64,000 bases of DNA, taken from the IMG/VR virus record IMGVR_UViG_3300027833_000017; one strand, given 5' to 3'. This DNA comes from a virus. Positions 37,935 to 58,150 of this stretch are shown in pieces; the stretch's first letter is position 1; the number at the start of each line of letters is the position of its first letter. The translations under genes and the position numbers were made by a program. Under the pieces are notes generated by a model that saw only the letters and a program-made list of their open reading frames with translations, ran no database searches and was not told the DNA's origin.

Positions 37935-38143
37935 AAACGATTAACGACATGGTTGAGGACAACTTTGATGAGTTCCAAAAAGACAGTGATAGATTTAAGG
38001 GTATGAAACTTTTGATAGATTTCAAGCCATTAGATCTTAGTGTCAATTCTCCAGAAATGGAAATGCCAAAACCTAAATTTAAGAAGAGGCAAATAACATC
38101 AAAATTTATTAAACCAAATCCTAACAAGAAATCATTATTTTAA
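37922..38143 (+). CDS. small hypothetical protein
   Basis: Fills the gap between primase and uvsY and ends in KKSLF. The start may instead be 37949. Confidence 0.5.
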   Translation: MVCIETINDMVEDNFDEFQKDSDRFKGMKLLIDFKPLDLSVNSPEMEMPKPKFKKRQITSKFIKPNPNKKSLF

Positions 38144-42065: not shown

Positions 42066-43349
42066 ATGAAGATCTTTACTAATTTTAATGAATTTATAAC
42101 TGAACGACTACATATTAGTGTACCAGAATCTCTTATTTTAGAAGGTGGTGCAGCAGGTCACATGTCACATCCATTTGATGAGAAAGATTTAACATTTAGT
42201 GATTTTAAGAAAATTATTGAAGCAGGATTATATGGTGAACTAAACTTCGAAGAAGAAGCAACTGAAAAAACTGACGGTCAAAATGTATTTGCAACAGTTC
42301 AAGATGGAGAAGTAAAATTTGCCAGAAATAAAACTGAATTAGCAAATCCAATGGACCTTGCTACTTTTAAGAATAAGTTTGAAGGACATGCTAGTCCATT
42401 AGTACAAGATACTTTTCAATTTGCTGCAGAAGATTTAGCAAGCTCGTTAAATAAATTATCCCCTAAAGATTTAGAAGTTTTTGATAATGGTAAAAACTTT
42501 ATGAATATGGAGTTAATTTACTCTAAGAATCCTAACGTAATCTATTATGATCGTGATGTTATTCAATTTCATGGTATAAAGAAAACTGACGGTGAAGGTA
42601 ATACTATTGGAGATGATAACAAACCAGCAAGATCAATCGCTAAAGCAATGCAAGATCTTAAAATTAATGTTGGTAAAACATTTACAGTAATTCCACCTCA
42701 AGTTATTAAAATAGGAAAAGATTTAGATTTTGAAAAGAACAAAGCTAAATTTATCAAACAGGTAGAATCACTAAGAGATCGTTATGGTTTATCAGATGAT
42801 GATCAAGTTTCAAGATATCACGAAATGTGGTGGAGAGAAACTATTGATACAAACTTTTCTGATTTAGAACAAGATCATAAAGAAGGACTTCTTTTAAGAT
42901 GGGCGTATGGTGATAAAAAGACACTAAACTTAAGATCATTAGACAAAGATTTAGGTAAAGATAAAGCATCTCTTATTAAGAAATTTGATAAAGAAGATGT
43001 TAAGAAAAAATACAAGGAAAACATTAGACCATTTGAGGATTTATTCTTAGAATTGGGTTCTATTATCCTTAAGAATGCTTCTAATTTTGTTGCAGCAAAC
43101 CCAGATGCTGAAATGCAAAGGTTGCACGATCAAATAAGAACAGAAGCTGAAGGTATTAAGAAAACAGGAGGTGCAGCTCAGATCGCAAAGGTTGAAGCTG
43201 AACTTGCTAGGTTAGACAGAATTGGAGGAATAGAATCTATTATACCAACTGAAGGAATAGTTTTTGTGTACAAAGGAAAAACAATGAAATTAACAGGTAC
43301 GTTTGCAGCCATTAATCAATTAATGGGTATCATAAAATACGGAAGATAA
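42066..43349 (+). CDS. ligase-fold covalent nucleotidyltransferase (DUF6267-like), capsid-targeted
   Basis: MKIFTNFNEFITE start and GGAAGHMSHPFD. Ligase motifs: I EKTDG, III NMEL, IIIa IQFH, IV EGIV, V MKLTG. Confidence 0.65.
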   Translation: MKIFTNFNEFITERLHISVPESLILEGGAAGHMSHPFDEKDLTFSDFKKIIEAGLYGELNFEEEATEKTDGQNVFATVQDGEVKFARNKTELANPMDLATFKNKFEGHASPLVQDTFQFAAEDLASSLNKLSPKDLEVFDNGKNFMNMELIYSKNPNVIYYDRDVIQFHGIKKTDGEGNTIGDDNKPARSIAKAMQDLKINVGKTFTVIPPQVIKIGKDLDFEKNKAKFIKQVESLRDRYGLSDDDQVSRYHEMWWRETIDTNFSDLEQDHKEGLLLRWAYGDKKTLNLRSLDKDLGKDKASLIKKFDKEDVKKKYKENIRPFEDLFLELGSIILKNASNFVAANPDAEMQRLHDQIRTEAEGIKKTGGAAQIAKVEAELARLDRIGGIESIIPTEGIVFVYKGKTMKLTGTFAAINQLMGIIKYGR

Positions 43350-45196
43350 TGGCATTACAAAATTTAAGAACATATTTTCAATCAACCAACATTAATGATT
43401 TTAATTCAATGTTGAAATTAACATGTGTTGTATCAGAAAAAATACAAGCATCTTCGTTTCATGTTAAAAGCACTAGTACTGGTTATGAATATTTTAAAAG
43501 TGGTTCTAAACATAAAATGGATAAAGTAGATAGAACTATGGTAAGATACTATGAAAATGGTATCAATTACTTTAAAGCTATTCCTAAAGATGTAAAAGAA
43601 GATATGCCACATGATTGGAAATTCGGATTTGACTACATGATTGACAACAAGACAGTAGATATCGAATATGAAAGTCTTCCTAAAAATCACTTAATACTAA
43701 CACACATACAAATATTAAATCCTAAAAATCCCACACAAATCAAAAAAGTTATTAGAGATCCACAGATCTTAAATAAGTGGTCAGAATTATTAGGTGTTCA
43801 AAAACCTCCGGTTATATTTCAAGGAGTTTTACAATCAAATCAAAAAGATGACTTAATTAGATTACTAGAACTTTCTGATTCTGATTTTAAAATCAAATTC
43901 AAAGATCAATCTTTTACAAGAGCTATATTTAATATATTTAACATAGGTCTTAATAATCCAACGTTAAATTCTAATTTAGATAATGATATAGATGGTTTAA
44001 TAGTAAACTTCTATGAAGGTAAAAATCCAAAAAGTTTTAAACTTGAAAGATTTGACAGGAATGATGTTAAAAAAAGAGAGCCATCTGACATGTATCAGAT
44101 TGCAATATTAGATTTAGTAGAGTATATTACAGAGTTTAATCTTGAAGAAATTTCTTTAGAATCAGAAGATTCAGCAGAACGATATATTGAATTAATTTCA
44201 CACATCTTTAATGCATACATTGAAAAGAATGCTTCTAAATATGTAGGAGCTAGTTTTAATTCTGCGGATTTTTCAGAAAACAAAAGTTTTAAATTAAATC
44301 CAGTTTTTATTACAAATGAAAAAACACTATCATTAATACAGAATGACGTTTTATCAGAATTGTATAAAATAGCATTGGGTAGTTTTAGAAAAAAGAGAAA
44401 CAAAGAAACAGATATTATTAATAAAGATTTAATGTCGCAGATCAATGAAATAGTTGATAGTATAGATGCAATAGTAATGGCAAAAACAAATGAAAATGAT
44501 GTTCTTAATTTTAAGTCATATCTGTTAAATCAAAAATTACAATATAATGAATCTCCTGTTTTAGAAGCATTAAAGGTAGATTACCCAGAACATGGTAAGA
44601 AATTAGTTAATATGTTTGTTGGTAGATTTCAGCCTTTTACGTTGGGCCATGCTAAAGTAGTTGAAACTATTCATAAGCAAAATGGTCACCCGGTCGTAAT
44701 CTTATTAGTAAAGGCTAAGAAAAAGAAAAAAGAAGATGCATTTAAAAGACCTTATGATGAGGACACTCAAGTTGCAATGATTGATAGATTAAAATCTAAA
44801 TATCCAATTGAAGAAGTTTTTGTAATTCCAACGGGCGGTATTGACACTATGTTCAATGCAATGAGGCCAAAATACGAACCAGTGTTATGGGGAACCGGAA
44901 GTGACAGAATGAAAACTTATGGATTTCAAGTAGATAAACCAGAATATAGAGAAGATCTTGGAGTTAGAACTGATTTTGGACTTTATGAAATACCAAGAAC
45001 TGGCAAGAATATATCAGCAACACAAGTAAGAAATGCAATGTTAGATGGTGATGAGAAGCTATTTAAGAAGCTAACACCAAAACCGATACATGATATGTAT
45101 AATGAATTAAAATCTAAATTAGAAGATTCTATGGGTGTTGTAGCAGAATCAGATTCTAACACAATGACTTTCGATCAATTTTTAAAGAATATATAA
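43349..45196 (+). CDS. degenerate ligase-fold domain fused to an HxGH (cytidylyltransferase/NMNAT-like) nucleotidyltransferase
   Basis: N-part SEKIQASSF...DGLIV...FKL. C-part GRFQPFTLGH, GSDR and ISATQVR. Confidence 0.75.
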   Translation: MALQNLRTYFQSTNINDFNSMLKLTCVVSEKIQASSFHVKSTSTGYEYFKSGSKHKMDKVDRTMVRYYENGINYFKAIPKDVKEDMPHDWKFGFDYMIDNKTVDIEYESLPKNHLILTHIQILNPKNPTQIKKVIRDPQILNKWSELLGVQKPPVIFQGVLQSNQKDDLIRLLELSDSDFKIKFKDQSFTRAIFNIFNIGLNNPTLNSNLDNDIDGLIVNFYEGKNPKSFKLERFDRNDVKKREPSDMYQIAILDLVEYITEFNLEEISLESEDSAERYIELISHIFNAYIEKNASKYVGASFNSADFSENKSFKLNPVFITNEKTLSLIQNDVLSELYKIALGSFRKKRNKETDIINKDLMSQINEIVDSIDAIVMAKTNENDVLNFKSYLLNQKLQYNESPVLEALKVDYPEHGKKLVNMFVGRFQPFTLGHAKVVETIHKQNGHPVVILLVKAKKKKKEDAFKRPYDEDTQVAMIDRLKSKYPIEEVFVIPTGGIDTMFNAMRPKYEPVLWGTGSDRMKTYGFQVDKPEYREDLGVRTDFGLYEIPRTGKNISATQVRNAMLDGDEKLFKKLTPKPIHDMYNELKSKLEDSMGVVAESDSNTMTFDQFLKNI

Positions 45197-47452: not shown

Positions 47453-47962
47453 ATGAAACATTTAAAATTATTCGAAGCATTTGTAGCTTCACAGAAATTA
47501 AACGAAGATACAGATTGGGATGCCTGTGAAGGAGCTCAGAAAGATAAGTTTGCACAAGTATGTAAAGCTTTAAAATGTGAATACAGTGATTTAGTATTTT
47601 TTGAGCTGCTACACAACGAACTAGATTATTATACTAGTGAAGAGTATGACTACGCCTTTGAAAAGGACCAAGAAATACCCTTTACTAAGAAAGATCTTGT
47701 TTTAAAATCAATAGGTGATGAAGACCCACATCTCAACATGGATGGTGTTATAGTTAGTATTAAAGGCACTAAACTTAAATATTTTTATTTCGATAGCGAT
47801 ATGAATTACTCTGGTACCGTTTGCTCAGAGAAAGACATAAAGGCATTAGAAGAATTTTATTTAGATGGACAAAAAGCAAGTACTAAAGACGGGATTAAAA
47901 ATCCCACTTCAATGTTTGATGTTTACGGTGAATATTGTATGGACATGGGCTTTGAAAATTAA
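47453..47962 (+). CDS. internal-head-protein-like, acidic
   Basis: MKHLKLFEAFVASQKLNE leader, with a late-type motif at 47416. Confidence 0.6.
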   Translation: MKHLKLFEAFVASQKLNEDTDWDACEGAQKDKFAQVCKALKCEYSDLVFFELLHNELDYYTSEEYDYAFEKDQEIPFTKKDLVLKSIGDEDPHLNMDGVIVSIKGTKLKYFYFDSDMNYSGTVCSEKDIKALEEFYLDGQKASTKDGIKNPTSMFDVYGEYCMDMGFEN

Positions 47963-47978
47963 ACAAACAAAAACAATT

Positions 47979-48635
47979 ATGAAACACTTACAGTTATTTG
48001 AGCAATTTGTAAACGAGTCAGTGTCTTTTGGTAAAAAAGGAATTAAAGCTAAATTAGAAGACAAGCTTAGGCTTGCTAAAATAGCAGTAGAAAAATGGGG
48101 AGATTCATACAGCGGGATTTTAAACGATGTTGAATCTACTTTAAAATCAGGTAAATTACCAAGTTATAAAGAACCATTAAGGGTACAAGGTGATACTGCA
48201 AAAGATTCTTACGACATTTTTCAGGGCAGAAACGCTGTAAAACTAGCAGAAGCTATTTCTAAAGTTATTAAGAAATATAAAAAATATGAAACTGAGGAAT
48301 CTTCAGTCCCTGCAGCAGGCGGATGGTCTGGAACAATGAGATCTACTGTTGGTGGACAAATTCAAGGCAGATCAAACTTTAACCCGGGTGGTAGAAGAAC
48401 ATTTTTAATTGCAGTCACATGTGGTAGTGGAATTGATTCAAAAATTAAAGATAAAATGTTTCAAGAAATTTATGAATTAATGTTTGTACTAGATGAATAT
48501 AATTCATCAGACGGTGGTGTTATGTTTGACTATTCATCAGGTACTAATTATAGTACAATTGGATTAACAAACTCAAGCTATTCTTTTAATAATGGAACAG
48601 CTAATAATTTAATAGATATAATGAACAATCACTAA
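47979..48635 (+). CDS. internal-head-protein-like
   Basis: True start placed at 47979 (MKHLQLFEQFVNE). The ORF-track start at 47865 overlaps the previous gene. Confidence 0.6.
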   Translation: MKHLQLFEQFVNESVSFGKKGIKAKLEDKLRLAKIAVEKWGDSYSGILNDVESTLKSGKLPSYKEPLRVQGDTAKDSYDIFQGRNAVKLAEAISKVIKKYKKYETEESSVPAAGGWSGTMRSTVGGQIQGRSNFNPGGRRTFLIAVTCGSGIDSKIKDKMFQEIYELMFVLDEYNSSDGGVMFDYSSGTNYSTIGLTNSSYSFNNGTANNLIDIMNNH

Positions 48636-48636
48636 A

Positions 48637-49080
48637 ATGAAACATGTAAAGTTATTTAAACAATATGTTAACGAGAAAATAGAATATTCATATTCTACTA
48701 TTAATGGCAAAAAAATAGAATCTGATTGGGCAGGCTCTGCAGATAGCCTAAAAGATTTTATTAAGCTAATAAAAGGAATACCTGAAACTTTAGAATCTAT
48801 TAAAGTTCAAACAGGTACTTCTTCCTTTAACCCCGCATCAACAGAGATTAAAGGCCCTTTTAATTCTTCAAAAATTAATAAGGTGGTTAAATTGGTTAAA
48901 GATGCAGATAAAGCATTTGATAAGAACGGCGAAGTAATACACACTTATTTGTTATCATCATACTATGGAGCTGGTGGTAGAAACCACAACTCCGATCCTG
49001 CATATATTTCATATAGAACTGAACGTAGCGATAATTTTGGAAAAGCAATGTCTTCAGGAAAACATGGATCACTAGATTAA
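48637..49080 (+). CDS. internal-head-protein-like
   Basis: MKHVKLFKQYVNE leader. Confidence 0.6.
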   Translation: MKHVKLFKQYVNEKIEYSYSTINGKKIESDWAGSADSLKDFIKLIKGIPETLESIKVQTGTSSFNPASTEIKGPFNSSKINKVVKLVKDADKAFDKNGEVIHTYLLSSYYGAGGRNHNSDPAYISYRTERSDNFGKAMSSGKHGSLD

Positions 49081-49122
49081 TAAAACAAATATATAATCTA
49101 ATAAAACATAAAAACATATAAA

Positions 49123-49662
49123 ATGAAACATTTACAATTATTTGAAGAATTTTTAAACGAGAAGTCATATAGAATGACCGGTATCTATGCCGCAAAAGGT
49201 TTGGTGGGCAAAGTAATGCAAGCGTTTAGACAAGAAATTAAAACAGTAAAATACGAAGGTATTAATGTAGTGACTCAAGAAGAAGTCAATAAAGAATGGG
49301 CTAAGTTTGAAGATACAGCTAAGAAGATTATTTTAGATCAAGTAGAAAAAGGAGCAGGTGGCATGGACGGTGTGCTATATGTTACTGCTAATCTTTTTAA
49401 TGGATTCGCCATAGATGAGGTTAATGGTTTAAATAATTCAGATTCAGATACATTATATCTTTCATACGAAGTAGTAATTAATGTGGGCTTTATGGATGAT
49501 TTTAATGGTAAAAAAGTTGCTAGAAAAATCGATAAGACTGGAATGATGAATTCCCCGTTAGCAGGTAAGAGAGATCTTATTTATGGTGAATATGATGCAT
49601 CAGTTGGTAATAACAATCTTGAAATTAGAGATAACGAACATATCCAAATAGACGGAAAATAA
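49123..49662 (+). CDS. internal-head-protein-like
   Basis: MKHLQLFEEFLNE leader, with a late-type motif at 49088. Confidence 0.6.
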   Translation: MKHLQLFEEFLNEKSYRMTGIYAAKGLVGKVMQAFRQEIKTVKYEGINVVTQEEVNKEWAKFEDTAKKIILDQVEKGAGGMDGVLYVTANLFNGFAIDEVNGLNNSDSDTLYLSYEVVINVGFMDDFNGKKVARKIDKTGMMNSPLAGKRDLIYGEYDASVGNNNLEIRDNEHIQIDGK

Positions 49663-49663
49663 T

Positions 49664-50284
49664 ATGCCTTCTGTAAGCAAGTCACAACAAAGATTAATGG
49701 GCATGGCATACGCTTTAAAAAAGGGTGAACTAGATCCAAAAGATGCTAGTGCCGAAGTACAAGAATTAGCAGATTCAATGACTCTTAAACAACTCAAAGA
49801 TTTTGCAAGTACAAAACACGATGGCCTTCCACAATATGTAGAAGAAAATATTGGAATAGCTAATGTTTCTGGAATGGGACCAATCGTATTACCTGGAAAT
49901 GGAACAATAGGTTCAGGTGATGTGCCAGCTGGCCAAGGTGATGCCGAAGAAGAATACAAGAAGAAAAAGAAAAGAAATAAAAAAATGAAACATTTAAAAA
50001 CATTTGAGGCATTTAGCTTTGATTACGAGGGTATCGATATTAAAAATCCGTTTACTGACGAAACAGCAAGACAAGATGTAGATCCTAATAGTTACTATGG
50101 AAAGGATTATGCAAAATCAGATATTAAAAAAATAGTAGATGCAAGTGAAGCCTTTATTGCTAAGTACACAGAGTGGAAAGATATGCAACCTTTAGATACT
50201 GATGATGATTTACATGCAGATTTCGGAGAGCATGTTAGCAAATCTCTAGATGAATTAACAAAAATAGTTAAGAAACACGGATAA
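49664..50284 (+). CDS. DUF3008-like protein fused in frame to an MKHLKTFEAF-led domain
   Basis: MPSVSKSQQRLMGMAYALKKGE...SMTLKQLKDFAST matches DUF3008. An internal leader begins at 49985. Confidence 0.6.
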   Translation: MPSVSKSQQRLMGMAYALKKGELDPKDASAEVQELADSMTLKQLKDFASTKHDGLPQYVEENIGIANVSGMGPIVLPGNGTIGSGDVPAGQGDAEEEYKKKKKRNKKMKHLKTFEAFSFDYEGIDIKNPFTDETARQDVDPNSYYGKDYAKSDIKKIVDASEAFIAKYTEWKDMQPLDTDDDLHADFGEHVSKSLDELTKIVKKHG

Positions 50285-50775: not shown

Positions 50776-51084
50776 ATGTCTAAAAAGAAAACAAACATCC
50801 TATCTGAAGCTAACGAAATAGTAAACAATCGCTCAGAAGAAAAATCACGTCAATACGGTCCATTCGAAGAAGGTATGCGAAGAGCTGCTATGATTTTTAA
50901 TGGCATGACAGGTAAAGAACTAAACGGCTCAGATATGTATGCTGCACTTGTGGCACTTAAACTAAGTCGACACTCTTATAATTATAAACAAGACAATCTG
51001 CTAGATGCAGTTGCATATTTAGGTGCACTAGATAACTATGTTGAAAAGCACGGTTATAAAGACACTGAAGATCCAATAAAATAA
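50776..51084 (+). CDS. DUF6378-like all-alpha nucleotide pyrophosphatase-type protein
   Basis: RSEEKSRQYG...ALKLSR...DNLLDAVAY pattern. It is the first gene after a GAAAC-N17-type promoter. Confidence 0.65.
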   Translation: MSKKKTNILSEANEIVNNRSEEKSRQYGPFEEGMRRAAMIFNGMTGKELNGSDMYAALVALKLSRHSYNYKQDNLLDAVAYLGALDNYVEKHGYKDTEDPIK

Positions 51085-51087
51085 ATT

Positions 51088-52149
51088 ATGACAGAACTAA
51101 CATTTTTTACAGAAAAGGAAACCGACAAATCGATTAGAGTAGGTATATGCGCATTAGTCGGTAAGATTAGCCCTAAAATCTCATCACATAAAGGCGCATG
51201 GGCCCACATGCTATATAATCAATTACAAAACGCAGGGTATTCTAATGCAGAAGTAATCACATCTAACCAAACTGATTGGAATGACTATGACGCAATTCTA
51301 ATTGATCATGGTATGGAATTTAAAGGCACCTTCAATATATTCGGAGGATCTAATGATGATTTATATCACCAATTAATGAGGTTATTTTCCCCCGTTAAAA
51401 AATATTCTTTACATCATGATATGCCAGATATTGGTAATTTGATTCAAACTAGACTCAATGCGGGAACTGATTTATTTAAAACACTTGAAACTAGAATTGA
51501 AGAAGCAACCGAACTATGTAAAAATATACATCGTGTAGATCACATAGATAAAACAGAAAAACTATGTTTTGGTGATAGTCACTCTTTTGGAATGTATCAA
51601 GCAGGATATATGTGTCAAAGACACGATGGATTAACTATGCACGGTGCATTAAAAAGAGGTTTACAAAGTTATGTATATCCATGGGTTAAAAGTCTAACAG
51701 TTTATATGGGTAATATTGATGTAAGACATCATTTGATGCGCCAATCTAATCCTTCAGATTCTGTAAAAACACTTCTAAAAAAATATGAAGATGAACTTAT
51801 TAGTTTGGGTATTAGTGACATTGAGATTGTACATGTTTTGCCAATTGAAAACGAATCTAGACCATTGCCAAAAACAGGTTATTACAAAGGAACGCCATTT
51901 GCTGGAACATGGTCAGAACGTAATGTTCTTGTAAATGAAATTAATTTAGGCATTGATGATATGGCTAAAAGAAATAACTGGAAAGTTTATAAACACCCAG
52001 AAGTTTATTTTAATGCAAAAGAAGAATTAACATTTGATGTTATGGAAAAGCCTAAATCAGTTCATATTTCTAGAGAGTATTACAGATGGAACATGGAAAC
52101 AAATCAACCAAATAAAAATTTAATTAAACAAACACTATCTTTATTTTAA
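51088..52149 (+). CDS. predicted DNA-modifying chimera: beta-glucosyltransferase-like N-domain plus SGNH acyl-hydrolase/transferase domain
   Basis: DWNDYDAILI...FNIFGG...YSLHHDMP resembles the T4 BGT N-domain. FGDSHS, MGNID and SVH are SGNH blocks I, III and V. Confidence 0.5.
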   Translation: MTELTFFTEKETDKSIRVGICALVGKISPKISSHKGAWAHMLYNQLQNAGYSNAEVITSNQTDWNDYDAILIDHGMEFKGTFNIFGGSNDDLYHQLMRLFSPVKKYSLHHDMPDIGNLIQTRLNAGTDLFKTLETRIEEATELCKNIHRVDHIDKTEKLCFGDSHSFGMYQAGYMCQRHDGLTMHGALKRGLQSYVYPWVKSLTVYMGNIDVRHHLMRQSNPSDSVKTLLKKYEDELISLGISDIEIVHVLPIENESRPLPKTGYYKGTPFAGTWSERNVLVNEINLGIDDMAKRNNWKVYKHPEVYFNAKEELTFDVMEKPKSVHISREYYRWNMETNQPNKNLIKQTLSLF

Positions 52150-52152
52150 TAT

Positions 52153-52305
52153 ATGAAAGAATACCAAATAATAATAACACCATTAAATGCCAACGATGCT
52201 AGCTACATATTAGTAATTGAATCTGATAGAATAGAGTGGTCGATGGAACAATACCAAAGAAACCGAGATGCTTTCGATTGGAAAATCAAAGAAGTGAATG
52301 AGTAA
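52153..52305 (+). CDS. small hypothetical protein (50 aa, not in the ORF track)
   Basis: MKEYQIIITPLNANDASYILVIESDRIEWSMEQYQRNRDAFDWKIKEVNE fills the gap exactly and overlaps the next start. Confidence 0.5.
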   Translation: MKEYQIIITPLNANDASYILVIESDRIEWSMEQYQRNRDAFDWKIKEVNE

Positions 52306-53518
52306 CAAAGTTCAAATTAAGACAACTAAATATTATGATGAGTTTATCAGATATTATGACCTGGCATTAAAGCAACAAGAGCTTTCTAATTTAGGAATGG
52401 TCCCTCATGCTGAAAGTGGCATGAATGACCCATTAATGGAACACATTGAATTATATGATGTTGTAGAAAGAAAATATGCTGGGTTTAGTCAAATCGTAAA
52501 TGATTGTTTTTATGGATGGACAGATAAACATCCATATTGGGAACACATGCAAGCTGGTAAAATTTACCCCCAAAGAGAAGAGGTTGCAAAAAATTGGACT
52601 AGTCGTCAAGATGTTTTCGGATTAGAAGAGTGGCTTTATATTTTTATTTTACATAGAGTTTGTGGCTCTGCAATTAATTACGCAACTAAACCATCAGGCT
52701 ATCACAACACAATCTTATTCGATTTATATGATTGCAATACTATTGAAGATATGTGTGAAAAGGTAAAATATCATCCAACTCCATTTTATACTTCAGTAGG
52801 ATACCAATTTCCTGCCTTTCCGAAGCCACCTAAACCAAATGTTAACGAAGATTCATTCGTAGGCATGTCTAATTTTACTGAACCAGAATATGTGTATAAA
52901 AGAGGAGGAGATTATTTCTTATGTGAATTTGCACCAAGAATGGCCAGAGACATGGCAAACTTCTTAAGAACAGATGGTAAAAAAGATTTAAGAGAATTAG
53001 GTGAATGGATGTTTAAATGGAATGCTGATAATGGATTAAGAGCATATAGATTTCAATACGCCGCAGTTATTGCAGATGTATGTGACTGGTACCCAGAATT
53101 TATGAACAGAGAATCAATGTTTTATTATGGCACTAACGCAGTAGAATGTATTGGTTATCTTGCAGACCCTATAGAAAAAAAGGGTAAGAAGTCTGAAGAA
53201 TTTTTAGATGCAGTTATGACTAAAATTTACGAAGACACAGGTTCATTACCATATAACGCAGAAGATGTTGCATGTGATTTTATCAGATGGATTGAAAATT
53301 ATTTAAAACCAGGACCTGATTATGCACACATCAACATGGATGCTTTATGGAATTCATCTTCGATCACAGATCATCCATATGGTCGTCAAAAAGCAATGTT
53401 AGATTTAGGTCTAGTAGAAACCTTTAATGGAATGTCACAATTTCCATCGGACGATAAGATTTTACAAAGCGCAGGAGTTTCAGTTGAAGAATATAAAAAA
53501 ATGGTAAGCAAATTATGA
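52298..53518 (+). CDS. HhH-fold DNA hypermodification enzyme (aGPT-Pplase/amino-acid:DNA transferase-like), paralog 1
   Basis: YDVVERKY...FQYAAVIADV...GTNAVECI...AEDVACDFIRW resembles the ExxxC(E/D)FxK/R C-terminal motif. A PLP enzyme and a dNTPase are neighbours. Confidence 0.55.
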   Translation: MSNKVQIKTTKYYDEFIRYYDLALKQQELSNLGMVPHAESGMNDPLMEHIELYDVVERKYAGFSQIVNDCFYGWTDKHPYWEHMQAGKIYPQREEVAKNWTSRQDVFGLEEWLYIFILHRVCGSAINYATKPSGYHNTILFDLYDCNTIEDMCEKVKYHPTPFYTSVGYQFPAFPKPPKPNVNEDSFVGMSNFTEPEYVYKRGGDYFLCEFAPRMARDMANFLRTDGKKDLRELGEWMFKWNADNGLRAYRFQYAAVIADVCDWYPEFMNRESMFYYGTNAVECIGYLADPIEKKGKKSEEFLDAVMTKIYEDTGSLPYNAEDVACDFIRWIENYLKPGPDYAHINMDALWNSSSITDHPYGRQKAMLDLGLVETFNGMSQFPSDDKILQSAGVSVEEYKKMVSKL

Positions 53519-54657
53519 GTAACAAACAAGATATAATTAGAGAACCTCGACTTAAAATTGAACACAACCCAAAAACAGGTTCATATGTGTCAGATTTTTT
53601 ACAAAAAAAACTATTTGAATTAGAGGGTGAAAAAGAAACCAATTACAACAATATACAATATCCTAACACTAACTTAGATATCGAATTTAAAAAGAAGAAA
53701 CCTAAAGAGAGTTGGATGAAAGATTGGACTCAAGAGGAACGTTTTGATAAATTCTTTGAATTCTGCGATGCATTCGATAAGAGGCAAGACAAATTATTAT
53801 TAGAAGATTATCAGATATTTTCACATAGATTACACTGGCATGAACATCCATATTGTTATATGATGCAACATGAAACCGATTTAGAAAAACTATTATATTA
53901 TACAATTGTATTTTCTTTTAGTAATGAGCACTGGGGAACAATTATGAGATTGATCAATGATGGTGAAGAAAAAACACGTGAGCACTTTAAAGAGAATCGA
54001 CATGCTCGTAACGATCTATTTCAGATCTATTATCCTAAAGGCACTCAAGTAAAAGATTGGTTATTAGAAGGTCCAAAAAAAGCGGCTAAAGATATGGTTC
54101 ATATTTTAGAAGATTTAAAAAGACCATATACAATGATGGAATTTGCTAAATTATTAGAGGCTTATTTTAAAGAACATCAAAACTTTAGATCACCATTATA
54201 TCCATGTAAGAACACTGCAAGATATGTGGCTATGAGTCGACCAGATTTAGTAGATCCTGAATCTATCTTATTCGGTGGCACTGGACATTTTGATGGAATG
54301 CAACAGATATTTGGAGGTCCAAACCTAAATGGTAAAGTAAAATATAGTATTGATACAGATGGTCAATTTATAGCAGAAAATGCACATGCTCAAACATGGA
54401 TTGATCAGATGAACATTTTAGCAAATCACCCAAATAATCCAATGACTAGTCAAAAGATGTTGAACGTAGAGGATAAAACATGTTTTTTTTATAAGCACAT
54501 TGCAATTAGTCATGGTATTAAATCACCAACAAAAAGAATTCCATATACTTGGATATTCGAAGGTAATTTTAATTTAGCTAAACATCCAACTGAAGATGTT
54601 GTAGTTAATGCAGACACAACAAGACATTTATGGGGTAGAGAATATCCAAACGAGTAA
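53515..54657 (+). CDS. HhH-fold DNA hypermodification enzyme-like, paralog 2
   Basis: YPCKNTARYVAMSRPDLVDPES...GTGHFDGM...VEDKTCFFYKH is collinear with paralog 1. Confidence 0.5.
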   Translation: MSNKQDIIREPRLKIEHNPKTGSYVSDFLQKKLFELEGEKETNYNNIQYPNTNLDIEFKKKKPKESWMKDWTQEERFDKFFEFCDAFDKRQDKLLLEDYQIFSHRLHWHEHPYCYMMQHETDLEKLLYYTIVFSFSNEHWGTIMRLINDGEEKTREHFKENRHARNDLFQIYYPKGTQVKDWLLEGPKKAAKDMVHILEDLKRPYTMMEFAKLLEAYFKEHQNFRSPLYPCKNTARYVAMSRPDLVDPESILFGGTGHFDGMQQIFGGPNLNGKVKYSIDTDGQFIAENAHAQTWIDQMNILANHPNNPMTSQKMLNVEDKTCFFYKHIAISHGIKSPTKRIPYTWIFEGNFNLAKHPTEDVVVNADTTRHLWGREYPNE

Positions 54658-54661
54658 AATA

Positions 54662-55330
54662 ATGAAGATGAAAAATAAGGCAGAAGACGCATGGCAAATA
54701 CTTAGAATTCAGGGTGAATTCACTAAAGGATTTGACACATTTAATCAATTAGAAGGATCATATGTATCAGTTTTTGGAAGTGCAAGAACATTAAGTACTA
54801 ATTCAATTTATAAAGAAGCAGAAAAACTAGGTAAATTATTAGTTGAATCAGGCTTTGGCGTAATTACAGGAGGTGGACCAGGAATTATGGAGGCTGCCAA
54901 TAAAGGAGCCCATGAAGCTGGAGGACAATCAATAGGAGTTGGCATTGAATTGCCATTTGAGGCTAGTATGAATGAATACGTAGATCTTGGCGTAGAGAAC
55001 AGATATTTCTTTACTCGTAAAGTAATGTTCTTAAAATATTCACAAGCGTTTGTGATATTTCCAGGTGGGGTTGGAACATTAGATGAATTGTTTGAAGCTA
55101 TTACGTTAGCACAATGCGGACATAATGTAAAATATCCAATTGTTCTAGTAGGTAAAAAATACTGGGAAGGATTAATTGATTGGATGCAAAATACACTATG
55201 GGAACACGGTGCAATAAGTCAAAAAGACTTTGATTTATTTAGAGTTGTAGATACTGCAGAAGAAGCCGTTGCAAAAATTACAGATTATCACAACAAATAT
55301 AAAGATAATAATTCAAAAACAAACTTTTAA
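54662..55330 (+). CDS. LOG-family nucleotide phosphoribohydrolase (TIGR00730-like)
   Basis: VSVFGSAR, ITGGGPGIMEAANKGA, FFTRKVMF and PGGVGTLDE. Start moved from 54608 to 54662 to remove the overlap. Confidence 0.9.
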   Translation: MKMKNKAEDAWQILRIQGEFTKGFDTFNQLEGSYVSVFGSARTLSTNSIYKEAEKLGKLLVESGFGVITGGGPGIMEAANKGAHEAGGQSIGVGIELPFEASMNEYVDLGVENRYFFTRKVMFLKYSQAFVIFPGGVGTLDELFEAITLAQCGHNVKYPIVLVGKKYWEGLIDWMQNTLWEHGAISQKDFDLFRVVDTAEEAVAKITDYHNKYKDNNSKTNF

Positions 55331-56227
55331 ATGGCCCATAATAAACACACAACAAGTACAATGAATCAGGATTTAAATCTAATGATGCCAAATAGACAAG
55401 CTTGGTTAGATTTAGCTGGAGATTGGCAAGATCCACTAGATGATCCAATTATTGTGAATCATGAAGGATTTAATGTAGTAAGAGATGACATGATGGGCTT
55501 TGGATCTAAATGTAGATTTGGAGATATCTTAGTACAGAAAGCACCGACCGACACATTAGTATATGTACAGCCCAGATTTGGATTCGCAGGAATTTCTCTT
55601 GCGTACTTAGCAAAAAAATACAATAAGAAGTTAGTATTATTTATGCCATCTGGTAAAGTAATATCAGATCACCAAGCCATATGCATTGAAAGAGGTGCTA
55701 TTGCTAAATTTAGAAGAATCGCAGCAATGCCTAATTTAAATAGAATTGCAAAACAATGGGCAGAAGATAATAACGCTACATTTATTCCGTTAGGACTTAA
55801 ACATGAATTGGTAACTGCAGCTGCGGTAAAAGTTGCATATGATGTAGCAGAAAAACATGGATATCCAGAAGAAGTATGGTCAGCAATATCAACTGGAGTT
55901 TTACAACGCTCTTTACAAATTGCATGGCCAGATGCTGAATTTAATGCAGTTGCAGTTTCTAGAAATATTCAGAACGGTGAATTGGGTAGAGCTAAAGTTT
56001 GGTCTCATCCAAAGGCATTTGCATCAGATGTAAAACCAGAATTTGCCCCTCCATTTCCATCAGCAATGAACTACGATGCAAAGGCTTGGGAATTTATGGT
56101 TAAGCACGGAAATCAAGGGGCTTGGTTTTGGAATGTAGGTGGACAACCTTACCCAGAATCAGAAGAAACTAAAGAAAAAACAAATTCAAAAAGAGAATGG
56201 GGAGAAGTTTTAGAAATGGACCTATAA
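55331..56227 (+). CDS. PLP-dependent enzyme (fold type II), of the type found in phage base-hypermodification clusters
   Basis: VVRDD...GSKCR (PLP lysine), GFAGISLAY, SAISTGVL, NYDAKAW and FWNVG. Confidence 0.75.
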   Translation: MAHNKHTTSTMNQDLNLMMPNRQAWLDLAGDWQDPLDDPIIVNHEGFNVVRDDMMGFGSKCRFGDILVQKAPTDTLVYVQPRFGFAGISLAYLAKKYNKKLVLFMPSGKVISDHQAICIERGAIAKFRRIAAMPNLNRIAKQWAEDNNATFIPLGLKHELVTAAAVKVAYDVAEKHGYPEEVWSAISTGVLQRSLQIAWPDAEFNAVAVSRNIQNGELGRAKVWSHPKAFASDVKPEFAPPFPSAMNYDAKAWEFMVKHGNQGAWFWNVGGQPYPESEETKEKTNSKREWGEVLEMDL

Positions 56228-56279
56228 AAACTGAAACTTTAAATTAAAATATCATATTAATAGTATAACAAATTAAATT

Positions 56280-56747
56280 ATGGCAAACATCGATAACGAA
56301 TGTAAAGATCTAGAAGTTAAAGATTTTTACGACCAATCAACAACACACCTTGCAGACATCATGGAAAACCAAAAGAAGATGCAAGAGCAAACTTATGGTA
56401 TTAACTTTGATAATATGACCATCCGAGAAATTATGGATTTCTGGCATGTTAACACACACTCGCTAATGGATGAAGTTCATGAAATGACAGATGCTCTCGG
56501 TGGAATTAAAGACGGTAGTGGAAACGCAGTATGGAAATACTGGAAGAAAGACTTTACAAAATATAATACATTAAAAATTTCTGACATGTCCGAAGGAGAC
56601 AAGAAGGAATTGTATATGGAATGGGTAGATATTCTACACTTCTTTATCAATTATGCATCTTCAATTGGGCTTGATGCCAAAACAGCTTACAATTACTACT
56701 TTGCAAAAGCTGAAGAGAATGTTAACCGTCAGAAAAACAATTATTAA
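56280..56747 (+). CDS. dCTP/dUTP pyrophosphatase, T4 gp56-like
   Basis: NEC, DEVHEM, AVWKYWK, ELYMEWVDILHF and YYFAKAEENVNRQKNNY are collinear with gp56. Confidence 0.8.
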   Translation: MANIDNECKDLEVKDFYDQSTTHLADIMENQKKMQEQTYGINFDNMTIREIMDFWHVNTHSLMDEVHEMTDALGGIKDGSGNAVWKYWKKDFTKYNTLKISDMSEGDKKELYMEWVDILHFFINYASSIGLDAKTAYNYYFAKAEENVNRQKNNY

Positions 56748-58150
56748 TGCTATTAGACATTGAACAAACTAGTAATGAACTAATTATTTCTTATTATAAT
56801 AAAGAAGGTAAAGTTTCATTTAAAAGATACGGAGTTAATCAATTCCAAAATTGGGTAGTCACCAAAGAAACAGACAAACACAAAGATAAAACATATAGAA
56901 ACTGGGACGATCGTCCTCTTAAAAGAGGTTTTGCTAAATCGTTTAACAAGTTTAGCTTGCTTTATTTTATGGACTCTTTACCAGAGGCTGATAAAGAAGA
57001 GATTTATGAATTCAATATGCCAAGAACATATTTTGTCGATATTGAAACAGAAATTGTAGATGGTTTCCCAAAACCAGAAGAAGCAAAATCACGTATATTG
57101 TCATTCTCTATTATTACACCAGAGCGTAAAGCTATTGTTTTAGGTCTAGAAGATATGCCTCATGATAAAGTTAAAAAAATCAATGATGATACTAACAAAT
57201 ATCTAAAAAATTATGATCAAGATTGGGAATTCTCTTATCATAAGTTTGACGACGAGTATAATATGTTATATACATTTCTACATAAGTTTTTACCTAAATT
57301 CCCAATGATGACAGGGTGGAACTTTATAAACTATGATTGGCAGTATATAGTTAATAGATGTAAACGATTACAAATAGACCTGACTGACGTGGCAATCACT
57401 GGATCATTAGATAGAAACGATAGTAGACCACTTCACATGGGTATTCTCGATTATATGCAATTATATGATAAATATGATCGTTCAGTTGCAGTAAAAGAAT
57501 CAAACTCATTAGATTTTGTTTCAGGCGCAGTATTAGATATTAATAAAATTAAATATAGTGGATCATTGCAGGATTTATATGAAAATGATTTTACTAAATA
57601 TATTTATTATAATGTAATTGATTCATGTTTAGTATATTATATTGATCAACAATTAAGATCAATGGAAGTTCTTTTAACATTAGCAACTATTACTAGAATG
57701 CCTCTTTATAAAGCTTCTTCACCCGTGGCTATCACAGAATCTTTATTGGCAAGAAAATTAGCTGAAACTAATAAGAAAATAGGTGTAGAATATGGAAAGG
57801 CAGATTCTCTTAAAGAAGGTAAATTCGAAGGCGCATTTGTAAAACAACCAATTGTAGGGTATTATTCTGGAGTAAGTGCATTTGATTTTGCTTCACTATA
57901 TCCATCAATAATGAGACAGTTTAACATTTCACCAGAATCTTTCGTTGAACAGGTAACTGAACCTGAAATTAACGAAAGAAGAAAGGATGAAAACGTAATT
58001 GTTTGTGAGAATGGTGTTGTCTATAAAAAAGAAGATTCAATCTTAAAAAAGATTTTAAGTGATTTATATTCTCAAAGAAAGGATTACAAAAAGACTTCAT
58101 ATGCGTATTATGAGAAGGCTTATGAACTAGAAAAAAAAATAAAAAAATAA
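56747..58150 (+). CDS. family B DNA polymerase, N-terminal subunit (exonuclease plus palm motif A; gp43A-like)
   Basis: DIETE, GWNFINYDW, YNVID and DFASLYPSIM. The protein ends in the first fingers helix. Confidence 0.9.
   Translation: MLLDIEQTSNELIISYYNKEGKVSFKRYGVNQFQNWVVTKETDKHKDKTYRNWDDRPLKRGFAKSFNKFSLLYFMDSLPEADKEEIYEFNMPRTYFVDIETEIVDGFPKPEEAKSRILSFSIITPERKAIVLGLEDMPHDKVKKINDDTNKYLKNYDQDWEFSYHKFDDEYNMLYTFLHKFLPKFPMMTGWNFINYDWQYIVNRCKRLQIDLTDVAITGSLDRNDSRPLHMGILDYMQLYDKYDRSVAVKESNSLDFVSGAVLDINKIKYSGSLQDLYENDFTKYIYYNVIDSCLVYYIDQQLRSMEVLLTLATITRMPLYKASSPVAITESLLARKLAETNKKIGVEYGKADSLKEGKFEGAFVKQPIVGYYSGVSAFDFASLYPSIMRQFNISPESFVEQVTEPEINERRKDENVIVCENGVVYKKEDSILKKILSDLYSQRKDYKKTSYAYYEKAYELEKKIKK

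What the first reader, a model, noticed from the sequence alone, without database searches (positions are those of the whole stretch)
51088..52149. Chimeric enzyme: T4 beta-glucosyltransferase acceptor domain joined to an SGNH catalytic domain
Seen: residues ~16-115 (RVGICALVG...DWNDYDAILIDHG..FNIFGG...KYSLHHDMP) parallel T4 BGT as recalled from memory (KIAIINMG...DVNDYDRLIVVN..NFFGG...IYYLFTDIRLP). This includes the NxFGG base-flipping loop (N83) and an Asp (D111) at the catalytic-base position. The UDP-glucose-binding half is replaced by an SGNH domain (G162-D-S164, GNID, H326), and the tail is a clamp-like QTLSLF. Inference: a base-flipping DNA O-acyl (or aminoacyl) transferase or esterase acting on hydroxymethylpyrimidine through a Ser acyl-enzyme. 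I know of no described enzyme with this architecture.
Basis: partly seen in the sequence, partly recalled or inferred. Interest (0 to 1): 0.85.

Follow-up and report, generated by a model that had tools for sequence, protein, structure and literature searches.

The report
Glucosyltransferase-esterase hybrid DNA-modifying phage enzyme
A jumbo-phage gene encodes a hybrid enzyme: the DNA-gripping half of phage T4's DNA glucosyltransferase joined to an esterase/acyltransferase-type catalytic half. It always sits beside DNA base-modification genes, so it probably decorates hydroxymethylated cytosine in the phage's DNA in a way not yet described.

Summary
ORF 51088-52149 (+, 353 aa) is real and has two confidently modelled domains (AlphaFold2 pLDDT 96.8).

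- **N-domain (residues 16-150).** It is homologous to the N-terminal DNA/acceptor domain of T4 beta-glucosyltransferase (BGT). Profile-profile E is 6.6e-12, and BGT entries are the top three structural matches (Z 6.7-7.8). The NxFGG loop is included.
- **C-domain (154-342).** It is an SGNH fold (Z 12-13) with blocks I-III and the block V His conserved across 115 diverse relatives. It shows no relation to BGT's UDP-glucose domain (0.8%).
- **Tail.** QTLSLF resembles the phage's own polymerase tail (SALF), consistent with clamp binding.

The family has about 400 clusters at 50% identity, all unannotated. In 50 of 50 testable loci it lies next to a helical partner protein, and it occurs fused to either partner type; one type carries the 5-hmdU DNA kinase helical domain but no kinase. 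Relatives sit beside gp42-type (cytosine-type) hydroxymethylases and in T4's beta-gt slot. Members occur in Aeromonas phages 44RR, 31 and 25, which have gene 42 but no glucosyltransferase.

The chemistry is inferred, not shown. My best guess is a Ser-acyl-enzyme acting at the 5-hydroxymethyl group.

This scan has met the same cassette before on other DNA. I found no paper describing the enzyme.

The parts
51088..52149 (+). Whole ORF, 353 aa: BGT-N/SGNH chimera
   Evidence: ORF list. AlphaFold2 model pLDDT 96.8, pTM 0.93. Member of PHROG 13881/17781, unknown function.
51133..51537 (+). N-domain (residues 16-150), homologous to the T4 beta-glucosyltransferase N-terminal (DNA/acceptor) domain
   Evidence: hhalign N vs N 97.5%, E 6.6e-12. 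VIA top PDB hits are BGT: 1qkj Z 7.8 over 120 aa, 1j39 Z 7.2, 1c3j Z 6.7; T4 alpha-GT is 4th. Sub-threshold PF09198 hits in 4 of 115 members.
51184..51189 (+). S33-H34, near-invariant pair; H34 aligns with BGT's family-invariant E22
   Evidence: S in 107 and H in 110 of 115. Alignment. E22 is invariant in the BGT family.
51334..51348 (+). N83-I-F-G-G loop, aligned with BGT N70-F-F-G-G
   Evidence: N83 in 107, G86 in 96, G87 in 103 of 115. N70, G73 and G74 are invariant in the BGT family. Aligned.
51412..51426 (+). H109-H-D111-M-P113 segment, aligned with BGT F98-T-D100-I-R; the acid is only partly conserved
   Evidence: Position 111: D 19, E 18, P 42 of 115. Position 109: D 50, E 13. P113 in 87. 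Alignment.
51547..52113 (+). SGNH-fold catalytic domain (residues 154-342)
   Evidence: Foldseek probability 1.0 to GDSL/SGNH esterases. VIA Z 12-13 with 150-170 residues aligned at about 3 A. Sub-threshold GDSL/SGNH Pfam hits in up to 10 of 115 members.
51571..51582 (+). Block I, G162-D-S164-H165: predicted Ser nucleophile directly after strand 1
   Evidence: G 113, D 115, S 114, H 115 of 115. Secondary structure.
51634..51645 (+). Block II, T183-M-H-G186
   Evidence: T 111, L/M 114, G 99 of 115.
51709..51741 (+). Block III, G208-N-I-D211, followed by the conserved basic R213-H-H-x-x-R218
   Evidence: G 111, N 99 (S 12), I 108, D 115, R213 114, H214 104, H215 112, R218 111 of 115.
52045..52065 (+). 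Block V region: invariant E320 and S324-V-H326 (predicted general base). No Asp at His-3.
   Evidence: E320 115, S324 107, H326 113 of 115; position 323 is variable.
52129..52146 (+). C-terminal tail QTLSLF: likely sliding-clamp-binding peptide
   Evidence: pLDDT falls to about 51 at the end. About 60 of the 80 closest loci end in [ST/A][LM/x][SA]LF. The window's polymerase C-half ends SALF. T4 gp43 ends SLDFLFG and the 44RR family member ends SLDGLFAI.
50776..51084 (+). Upstream DUF6378 gene, co-located in 46 of 50 testable loci
   Evidence: Pfam PF19905, 7e-12. Co-occurrence.
52298..53518 (+). Helical partner A (406 aa); found fused to the chimera in other phages
   Evidence: Fusions P0125, P0136, P0141, P0197, P0192, P0200 and L075. 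Present in 38 of 50 loci. Atlas look-alike clusters carry HMUDK_hel in 11-36% of members and ADDT in 12% (lead only).
53515..54657 (+). 380-aa probable paralogue of partner A
   Evidence: hhalign 34%, E 4e-4, with a shared ED..C motif. BLASTP of P0192 to both proteins.
54608..56747 (+). LOG-family protein, PLP-dependent (fold type II-like) protein and MazG-like NTP pyrophosphatase completing the cluster
   Evidence: Pfam, NCBIfam and PHROG hits.

Best explanation
The protein is a post-replicative DNA base-modifying enzyme. It is the constant core of a modular phage pathway that further modifies 5-hydroxymethylcytosine.

**Shown**
- Its N-domain descends from the DNA/acceptor domain of T4 beta-glucosyltransferase.
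- Its C-domain is an SGNH fold with the Ser164 nucleophile, the Gly186 and Asn209 oxyanion-hole residues and His326 conserved.
- BGT's UDP-sugar domain is absent.
- It always lies next to a helical partner protein or is fused to one.

**Inferred**
- The BGT-like domain binds duplex DNA and presents a flipped-out 5-hydroxymethylpyrimidine in the inter-domain cleft.
- The C-terminal xLSLF tail holds the enzyme on the sliding clamp behind the fork.
- Ser164 takes an acyl group from a phosphate-bearing donor. The invariant Arg213, Arg218, Arg258, Arg278 and His214/215 suggest an anionic ligand.
- The acyl group is passed to the 5-CH2OH.

**Most likely role**
The resulting ester is a leaving group. 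The adjacent or fused helical transferase (HMUDK_hel/AADT-like) then replaces it with the final substituent: amino-acid-derived in this window's clade (a PLP enzyme is present) and inositol- or sugar-derived in others. On this reading the chimera does the job that the P-loop 5-hmdU DNA kinase does in thymidine hypermodification.

**Rough odds**
- Architecture: 0.95.
- Acts on hm-pyrimidine DNA: 0.7.
- Acyl activation in place of the kinase: 0.35.
For: **Architecture**
-.
- Catalytic residues conserved in 99-115 of 115 sequences.

**Link to hm-pyrimidine DNA chemistry**
- P0140 is FkbM methyltransferase + HMUDK_hel (PF18723, 4.5e-11) + this domain. 44RR ORF233c is this domain + an HMUDK_hel-like half.
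- Seven fusions to the 406-aa neighbour family.
- 50 of 50 loci with enough flank carry a helical partner within 6 kb.

**No kinase**
- No credible Walker A in the partners: one lone match in L070 is not conserved in 44RR.

**Cytosine type**
- Adjacent thymidylate-synthase homologues have Asp where T4 gp42 has D179 and ThyA has Asn.

**T4 slot**
- Polymerase 43 - this gene - MIPS - FkbM - HMUDK_hel - uvsX - 41.

**Cultured phages**
- 44RR and phage 25 have gp42 at 55-57% identity and no BGT.
- Petrov 2010 (PMC2993671) records that 44RR, 31 and 25 have genes 42 and 56 but no gt genes, with the modification unknown.

**Tail**
-.

**Precedent**
- SGNH O-acyltransferases working through a Ser-acyl intermediate, such as PatB (PMC12148441) and the SGNH review PMC9487903 (listed).
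Against: - No biochemical or structural-complex evidence exists. I could not get model coordinates, so I did not show that Ser164/His326 face the N83 loop.
- The acid corresponding to BGT's D100 is only partly conserved, and the SGNH triad Asp is missing.
- No acyl-donor-making gene is consistently present.
- Some clusters contain glycosyltransferase-type genes: TAGT in L077, and UDP-galactopyranose mutase in phage 25. These need a free hydroxymethyl group, which fits a tailoring role better than an activating one.
- The relation of partner A to AADT/HMUDK_hel rests only on Atlas look-alikes. My profile comparison was not significant.
- No gp42-like gene lies in this 64-kb window. It was found only on a related contig.
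Confidence: 0.4

Rival explanations
1. It is a tailoring enzyme, not an activator. The chimera binds already-decorated hmC DNA and O-acylates or de-acylates the appended group (sugar, inositol or amino-acid side chain), as most SGNH enzymes do with carbohydrates. The helical partner or a glycosyltransferase attaches that group first.
For: - SGNH enzymes typically add or remove acetyl groups on carbohydrate hydroxyls (PMC9487903, listed). Six members give sub-threshold hits to the AT3-associated acyltransferase-type SGNH family PF19040.
- Sugar or cyclitol genes occur beside family members: MIPS-like, TAGT, UDP-galactopyranose mutase and an SSF symporter.
Against: - The chimera is the one constant gene across clusters whose appended group must differ (amino-acid-type, inositol-type, sugar-type). 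That fits a step on the common hmC better than a step on variable decorations.
- This window's cluster has no sugar or cyclitol gene.
- The retained BGT acceptor-site residues (N83 loop, H34) suggest the same acceptor, the hydroxymethyl base.
Confidence: 0.25
2. It is a DNA-directed esterase that removes a group. Examples would be unmasking a precursor incorporated as an esterified hydroxymethyl nucleotide, or editing or erasing a modification. The BGT-like domain and the clamp tail serve only to bring it to DNA.
For: - Most characterised SGNH proteins are hydrolases.
- The top fold matches are esterases.
- The Ser-His pair without a triad Asp is compatible with simple hydrolysis.
Against: - No gene that would make an esterified nucleotide is evident.
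- Obligate pairing and fusion with transferase-like partners points to a biosynthetic step.
- A hydrolase would not need to replace the donor-binding domain of a transferase so precisely.
Confidence: 0.15
3. The SGNH-like domain does phosphoryl or phosphodiester chemistry. It would link a phosphate-bearing group (for example inositol phosphate or a phosphoribosyl unit) to the hydroxymethyl group through a phospho-Ser or direct transfer. This would make it a true functional analogue of the kinase.
For: - An unusually dense set of invariant Arg/His lies around the active-site blocks: R213, H214, H215, R218, R258, R278.
- Neighbours that make or handle phosphorylated small molecules: MIPS-like, LOG, and CitG-like in L005.
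- The domain takes the place of a kinase domain next to HMUDK_hel.
Against: - I know of no precedent for phosphotransfer by an SGNH fold.
- The basic residues could equally bind the DNA backbone.
- The oxyanion-hole residues typical of acyl chemistry are kept.
Confidence: 0.1
4. It is not a DNA enzyme. It would be an ordinary esterase acting on nucleotides, lipids or cell-envelope glycans, and the BGT-like fold would be a generic Rossmann-like appendage.
For: - Foldseek alone sees only CheY/flavodoxin-like matches for the N-domain.
- Structural Z scores of 6.7-7.8 are modest.
Against: - The N-domain to BGT relation is significant at the sequence-profile level, with clean negative controls, and includes BGT's invariant motif.
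- The gene lies among replication genes, not in lysis or tail modules.
- Fusions to HMUDK_hel-type proteins, the beta-gt slot position and the polymerase-like tail all point to DNA.
Confidence: 0.05

Closest known systems
T4 beta-glucosyltransferase (BGT; Pfam PF09198; PDB 1c3j, 1qkj, 1j39)
   Same: The N-terminal Rossmann-like DNA/acceptor domain is homologous, including the N-x-F-G-G loop and the strand order of the first ~100 residues. It is a phage enzyme tied to hydroxymethylcytosine, and in T4-like relatives the gene occupies the same genomic slot between genes 43 and uvsX.
   Different: The whole UDP-glucose-binding C-terminal domain (R191, R195, R269) is absent and is replaced by an unrelated SGNH fold. 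BGT's invariant E22 is His here. The D100 acid is only partly kept. A clamp-type C-terminal tail is added. It cannot be a Leloir glycosyltransferase.
SGNH/GDSL hydrolases and O-acyltransferases (TesA, sialate O-acetylesterases, PatB, OatA)
   Same: The fold and the order of blocks I, II, III and V match, with the Ser nucleophile, the Gly and Asn oxyanion-hole residues and the His base conserved. PatB and OatA are a precedent for transfer to a polymer hydroxyl through a Ser-acyl intermediate.
   Different: No curated SGNH model reaches threshold. There is no triad Asp at His-3. Block I reads GDSH with an invariant His. Extra invariant Arg/His residues are present. The domain is cytoplasmic, fused to a DNA-binding domain, and no membrane acyl-donor partner (MBOAT/AT3) is present.
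5-hmdU DNA kinase (5-HMUDK) of phages M6, ViI, PaMx11, SP10 (PMC5889632, PMC8989533)
   Same: It is found joined to or beside an HMUDK_hel-type helical protein, in a cluster with a transferase-like protein and a PLP enzyme, downstream of a pyrimidine hydroxymethylase. It plausibly supplies the leaving group on the hydroxymethyl carbon.
   Different: There is no P-loop kinase domain anywhere in the module. The fold and the probable chemistry differ (acyl rather than phosphoryl). The associated hydroxymethylases are cytosine-type, not uracil-type.
TET-associated glycosyltransferases and other hmC-decorating phage enzymes (TAGT, RB69 arabinosylation; PMC6024577)
   Same: They are post-replicative decoration of hmC in phages that lack the T4 glucosyltransferases. 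One relative's cluster (L077) even contains a TAGT.
   Different: Those are sugar transferases that use nucleotide sugars. This enzyme has no nucleotide-sugar-binding domain.

Membership tests
T4 beta-glucosyltransferase family (PF09198) | N-terminal acceptor/DNA-binding domain with the invariant N70-x-x-G-G loop | tested here: met
   hhalign N vs N 97.5%, E 6.6e-12. Whole-profile comparison 96.3%, E 1.6e-9. VIA ranks 1-3 are BGT, Z 6.7-7.8. N83, G86 and G87 are conserved.
T4 beta-glucosyltransferase family (PF09198) | C-terminal UDP-glucose-binding Rossmann domain (invariant R191, R195, R269) | tested here: not met
   hhalign C vs C 0.8%. The C-domain fold matches SGNH esterases at Z 12-13. 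A lone BLASTP patch (E 0.005 for one pair) is not upheld by the profiles.
T4 beta-glucosyltransferase family (PF09198) | Catalytic acid at the D100 position (invariant in the BGT family) | tested here: inconclusive
   The window protein has D111 aligned to D100. In the family, position 111 is D/E in only 37 of 115, while position 109 is D/E in 63 of 115.
T4 beta-glucosyltransferase family (PF09198) | Reaches the curated Pfam score | tested here: not met
   The window protein has no Pfam hit at E<=1. Four of 115 members give sub-threshold PF09198 hits, best 0.011.
SGNH/GDSL hydrolase superfamily | Five-stranded alpha/beta/alpha SGNH fold | tested here: met
   Foldseek probability 1.0, TM up to 0.63 on the target. 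VIA Z 12-13, 150-170 residues at about 3 A.
SGNH/GDSL hydrolase superfamily | Block I GDS with the Ser nucleophile after strand 1 | tested here: met
   G162-D163-S164: 113, 115 and 114 of 115. It follows strand 158-162.
SGNH/GDSL hydrolase superfamily | Block II Gly and block III GxND Asn (oxyanion hole) | tested here: met
   G186 in 99 of 115. G208-N209-I-D211 with N in 99 (S in 12) and D in 115.
SGNH/GDSL hydrolase superfamily | Block V DxxH (His base with Asp three residues before) | tested here: inconclusive
   H326 in 113 of 115, but position 323 is R/Q/K/G. Invariant E320 may substitute. Geometry could not be checked without coordinates.
SGNH/GDSL hydrolase superfamily | Reaches a curated family model | tested here: not met
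   No Pfam or NCBIfam hit for the window protein. Sub-threshold Lipase_GDSL_2, Lipase_GDSL and PF19040 hits in 10, 9 and 6 of 115 members. hhalign to E. coli TesA aligns only the GDS block, not significantly.
5-hmdU DNA kinase (5-HMUDK) | P-loop kinase domain | tested here: not met
   No conserved Walker A motif in the chimera's partners or fusions; one match in L070, not kept in 44RR. The fold is SGNH.
5-hmdU DNA kinase (5-HMUDK) | HMUDK_hel helical domain (PF18723) | tested here: not met
   Absent from the window protein itself. It is present in fusion partners (P0140 4.5e-11) and in neighbours of relatives (L070 3.4e-7). The window's own neighbour reaches it only through Atlas look-alikes.
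Sliding-clamp-binding proteins of T4-like phages | Short hydrophobic motif at the extreme, disordered C-terminus, shared with the phage's polymerase | tested here: met
   Tail LSLF compared with the polymerase C-half SALF. Conserved in most of the 80 close loci. Low pLDDT tail. T4 gp43 ends SLDFLFG and the 44RR member ends SLDGLFAI. Binding itself cannot be tested here.

The most novel reading that the evidence does not exclude
This is a previously unrecognised class of DNA-modifying enzyme: a clamp-riding SGNH acyltransferase built on the BGT DNA-binding domain. It esterifies 5-hydroxymethylcytosine in newly replicated DNA, giving a kinase-independent, ATP-independent way to activate the base. 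Interchangeable helical transferases then install amino-acid-, inositol- or sugar-derived groups. If so, a large family of marine and freshwater phages, together with Aeromonas phages 44RR, 31 and 25, would carry several cytosine hypermodifications that have never been chemically described.
Probability: 0.3. Interest if true: 0.9.

Novelty: new variant of a known kind. Interest (0 to 1): 0.8.

Why it matters
**An open question becomes testable.** Petrov et al. (2010) noted that Aeromonas phages 44RR, 31 and 25 make hydroxymethyl-dCMP but have no glucosyltransferase, and that it was unknown whether they modify it further. This family is present in exactly those cultured phages, which makes the question directly testable.

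**A new entry route into hypermodification.** All characterised hydroxymethylpyrimidine hypermodification starts from either a nucleotide-sugar transfer or a DNA kinase. An SGNH-fold enzyme acting on a DNA base would be a new route, and an example of domain swapping that turns a glycosyltransferase into a different transferase.

**Breadth.** The family is large (about 400 clusters at 50% identity) and entirely unannotated. A function would therefore annotate many phage genomes and predict new DNA chemistries relevant to restriction evasion, sequencing artefacts and hmC-labelling tools.

Tried and rejected
**Searches that found nothing for the window protein**
- Pfam, NCBIfam and PDB sequence searches.
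- A family-profile hmmsearch of all PDB sequences did not reach BGT at E<=10. The BGT relation needed a targeted profile-profile comparison.
- Foldseek on the N-domain gave only weak CheY/flavodoxin matches, and BGT was not in its top 50. The exhaustive VIA search was needed.
- Megablast of 24 kb of the window against phage records: no match.
- The window's own assembly is not held. The nearest record is a 27%-complete fragment without a thymidylate-synthase homologue.

**Ideas considered and rejected**
- That the SGNH-like domain is a diverged BGT C-domain. A BLASTP patch aligns GDSH with BGT's GGSFR loop (E 0.005), but the profile comparison gives 0.8% and the fold matches are all SGNH.
- That the partner proteins contain a hidden kinase. 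No conserved Walker A was found.

**Attempts to link the 406-aa neighbour to HMUDK_hel/AADT**
- hhalign against one sequence and against a 7-member alignment: not significant.
- A first attempt was confounded by the fused chimera domain in both alignments and was discarded.
- PDB profile search: nothing.
- Pfam at E<=10: nothing.
- Only Atlas look-alikes support the link.

**Other**
- hhalign to E. coli TesA was not significant beyond the GDS block.
- Literature searches for an SGNH enzyme in phage DNA modification found none.
Full report
**1. The object**

The window is low-GC (about 31%) with nearly all genes on the + strand. It carries tail and fibre genes followed by a replication module: SSB, primase, helicase, ribonucleotide reductase and a split DNA polymerase. 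Related contigs are estimated at 43-64% complete at 126-183 kb, so the phage genome is roughly 285 kb.

Pfam, NCBIfam and a PDB sequence search give nothing for the protein. It belongs to PHROGs 13881/17781, 'unknown function'.

**2. Size and spread of the family**

A word-indexed search found 842 relatives. An exhaustive search of 1.84 billion representatives found 407 clusters at 50% identity, 189 of them below 1e-30, nearly all covering residues ~17-340. So the two-domain architecture is the family norm, not a one-off fusion. No source names any of them.

In the GenBank phage collection, members occur in 43 records. These include the T4-like Aeromonas phages 44RR2.8t, 31, 25, Aes508 and phiAS4, Stenotrophomonas phage IME13 and Tenacibaculum phages. 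All are annotated 'hypothetical'.

**3. Structure**

With a 115-sequence alignment (A1), AlphaFold2 gives pLDDT 96.8 and pTM 0.93. Only the last ~8 residues are disordered.

Residues 154-342 match SGNH/GDSL esterases and acyltransferases:
- Foldseek probability 1.0.
- VIA Z 12-13 with 150-170 residues at about 3 A, in an unbiased scan of 48,161 chains.

The SGNH blocks sit where they should relative to the strands and are conserved across the 115 diverse sequences:

| Block | Residues | Count of 115 |
|---|---|---|
| I | G162 / D163 / S164 / H165 | 113 / 115 / 114 / 115 |
| II | T183 / G186 | 111 / 99 |
| III | G208 / N209 / D211 | 111 / 99 (S in 12) / 115 |
| V | S324 / H326 | 107 / 113 |

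The usual Asp three residues before the His is missing; E320 is invariant. There is also an unusual set of invariant or near-invariant basic residues: R213, H214, H215, R218, R258 and R278.

**4. The BGT claim**

I fetched T4 b-gt from NC_000866.
- Against a BGT family alignment spanning 29-61% identity (A4), where N70, G73, G74 and D100 are invariant, the match rises to 96.3%, E 1.6e-9.
- With each family split into halves, N vs N gives 97.5%, E 6.6e-12. C vs C gives 0.8% and the two cross comparisons give 0.1-0.2%.

I then modelled the N-domain alone (33 sequences, pLDDT 90.6).
- Foldseek saw only weak CheY/flavodoxin matches.
- The exhaustive VIA scan ranked T4 BGT (1c3j) first of 48,161 chains: Z 6.7, 104 residues, 2.9 A, model 16-150 on BGT 1-135. 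T4 alpha-glucosyltransferase came 14th.
- On the second look, BGT entries took ranks 1-3 (1qkj Z 7.8 over 120 residues; 1j39 Z 7.2; 1c3j Z 6.7) and alpha-GT took rank 4.

The Z values are modest on their own. The sequence and structure evidence agree on the same protein and the same register.

Curated models add support. Across all 115 members, the only Pfam families hit by more than one member are Lipase_GDSL_2 (10), Lipase_GDSL (9), the AT3-associated SGNH family (6) and T4-Gluco-transf (4), all below threshold.

- D111 is not conserved in the family.
- H34 is near-invariant and aligns with BGT's invariant E22. From memory of the BGT papers, E22 and D100 were the proposed catalytic residues and N70 sits in the DNA-contacting loop. 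I could not check this in the held library.

**5. Context**

Synteny across 80 related viral contigs is strong. Of 50 loci with at least 4.5 kb downstream:
- all 50 carry a helical partner within 6 kb;
- 38 carry the window's 406-aa type, here called A (21 also carry the 380-aa paralogue);
- 12 carry an HMUDK_hel-type partner, here called B;
- 46 carry the upstream DUF6378 gene and 34 the PLP gene;
- all 12 type-B loci carry a myo-inositol-1-phosphate-synthase-like gene.

Both partner types also occur fused to the chimera.
- Type A: P0125, P0136, P0141, P0197, P0192, P0200 and L075.
- Type B: 44RR ORF233c, and P0140, which is FkbM methyltransferase + HMUDK_hel (PF18723, 4.5e-11) + chimera.

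The partners have no conserved Walker A motif (a lone match in L070 is not kept in 44RR), so these modules contain the helical domain of the 5-hmdU DNA kinase without its kinase.

The link of type A to HMUDK_hel/AADT is only a lead. Atlas look-alike clusters carry PF18723 in 11-36% of members and PF18724 in 12%. My profile comparisons were not significant.

**6. Which base?**

In the type-B clades a thymidylate-synthase homologue lies two genes upstream. When aligned with T4 gp42 and a canonical ThyA, these homologues, and the divergent one on a contig of the window's own clade (L087), have Asp at the position of gp42 D179, where ThyA has Asn. They also keep the catalytic Cys. The meaning of that position as the cytosine/uracil discriminator is established knowledge of the TS/gp42 family, recalled rather than re-derived here.

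In one T4-like contig the order is regA ... polymerase 43 - chimera - MIPS - FkbM - HMUDK_hel - uvsX - 41. In T4, that interval holds imm, 42 and b-gt.

Aeromonas phages 44RR and 25 encode gp42 at 55-57% identity and have no detectable BGT. Petrov et al. 2010 (PMC2993671) state that 44RR, 31 and 25 have genes 42 and 56 but no glucosyltransferase genes, and that it is unknown whether they modify Hm-dCMP further. All of this points to hydroxymethylcytosine. No gp42-like gene lies within this 64-kb window itself.

**7. The tail**

- The last residues (QTLSLF) are disordered in the model.
- About 60 of the 80 closest homologues end in x[LM][SA]LF or xALF.
- A looser hydrophobic xLF or FF end recurs in perhaps a quarter to a third of the diverse family.
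- In this window the polymerase C-half ends ...YASALF, and a 73-aa replication-module ORF ends ...KKSLF.
- T4 gp43 ends ...KASLDFLFG, which I recall as its gp45-binding tail. The 44RR fusion ends ...CSLDGLFAI.
- A 247-aa gene beside the polymerase has Atlas look-alikes in a 'sliding clamp' cluster (lead only).

Clamp tethering is therefore a reasonable inference.

**8. Mechanism**

Shown: the architecture, the conservation and the genomic linkage. Inferred: everything chemical.

The BGT-derived domain should bind DNA and present the hydroxymethyl base. The donor-binding half of a glycosyltransferase has been replaced by a Ser-His acyl-transfer domain, so the donor is no longer a nucleotide sugar. 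SGNH enzymes such as PatB transfer acyl groups to polymer hydroxyls through a Ser-acyl intermediate (PMC12148441, PMC9487903; listed).

The chimera is the constant element beside interchangeable partners and accessory genes. It also stands where the kinase domain stands in 5-HMUDK. For both reasons I favour a common first step on hmC: esterification that makes the 5-methylene carbon substitutable by the helical transferase.

The main rival is tailoring of an already attached group. It gains weight from glycosyl-type neighbours: TAGT in L077 and UDP-galactopyranose mutase in phage 25.

**9. Novelty**

Searches of the held literature for an SGNH/GDSL enzyme in phage DNA modification, and for cytosine pathways using amino-acid:DNA-transferase-like enzymes, found nothing. 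The thymidine hypermodification papers do not mention such a protein.

This scan has already flagged the same cassette on other genomes. Earlier follow-ups called it a kinase-less hydroxymethylcytosine hypermodification cassette with a glucosyltransferase-esterase hybrid. I re-tested those claims independently here. They agree with my results, except that the AADT-like nature of the partner remains unproven in my hands.

Noticed in passing
L082:3764-5945 (Aeromonas phage 25, NC_008208): Directly upstream of phage 25's family member lie a UDP-galactopyranose mutase gene (Pfam GLF, 5e-54) and a 358-aa gene with no family. This hints at a furanose sugar in that phage's DNA modification.
   Followed up: partly
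L081:4375-5898 (Aeromonas phage 44RR2.8t, NC_005135): A phage-encoded sodium:solute symporter (SSF, 6e-53) sits immediately upstream of the chimera-HMUDK_hel fusion ORF233c. It could import the small molecule that is attached to DNA.
   Followed up: partly
L005:9213-10010: In a close relative (89% identical chimera), a CitG-like gene (ATP:dephospho-CoA triphosphoribosyl transferase, PF01874, 8e-11) is inserted between the chimera and its helical partner, where the window has only a 50-aa ORF. It is a possible clue to a CoA-derived or phosphoribosyl donor.
   Followed up: no
L070:9059-14992 and L077:9059-12626: Other clades pair the chimera with a myo-inositol-1-phosphate-synthase-like gene, an FkbM methyltransferase and an HMUDK_hel protein. 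L070 adds a C5 DNA-methylase-like gene and an NAD epimerase. L077 adds a TET-associated glycosyltransferase (PF20691, 1.3e-8).
   Followed up: partly
window 56747-58150 and 61806-63014: The DNA polymerase is split into two genes separated by the ribonucleotide reductase small and large subunit genes and a 247-aa gene (61059-61802). That gene's Atlas look-alikes include a gp45-type sliding-clamp cluster.
   Followed up: partly
window 37922-38143: A 73-aa ORF between primase and helicase ends in ...KKSLF, the same kind of C-terminal tail as the polymerase C-half and the chimera. It may be another clamp-binding protein.
   Followed up: no
window 47453-50284: Several consecutive ORFs begin with near-identical leaders (MKHLKLFEAF, MKHVKLFKQY, MKHLQLFEEF), and the same motif recurs inside the DUF3008 gene product. 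I did not examine it.
   Followed up: no
window 43349-45196: This 615-aa protein has a cytidylyltransferase-like domain (PF01467, 1e-8) and a weak citrate-lyase-ligase C-terminal hit (PF08218, 0.0016). Given the CitG-like gene in L005, it might relate to donor synthesis, but this is untested.
   Followed up: no
L087:1291-2154 and L084:1495-2556 (contig of L052): A relative of the window phage carries both a canonical ThyA (3e-94) and a divergent gp42-type homologue with Asp at the specificity position. It would therefore make both dTMP and a hydroxymethyl-dCMP-type nucleotide.
   Followed up: partly
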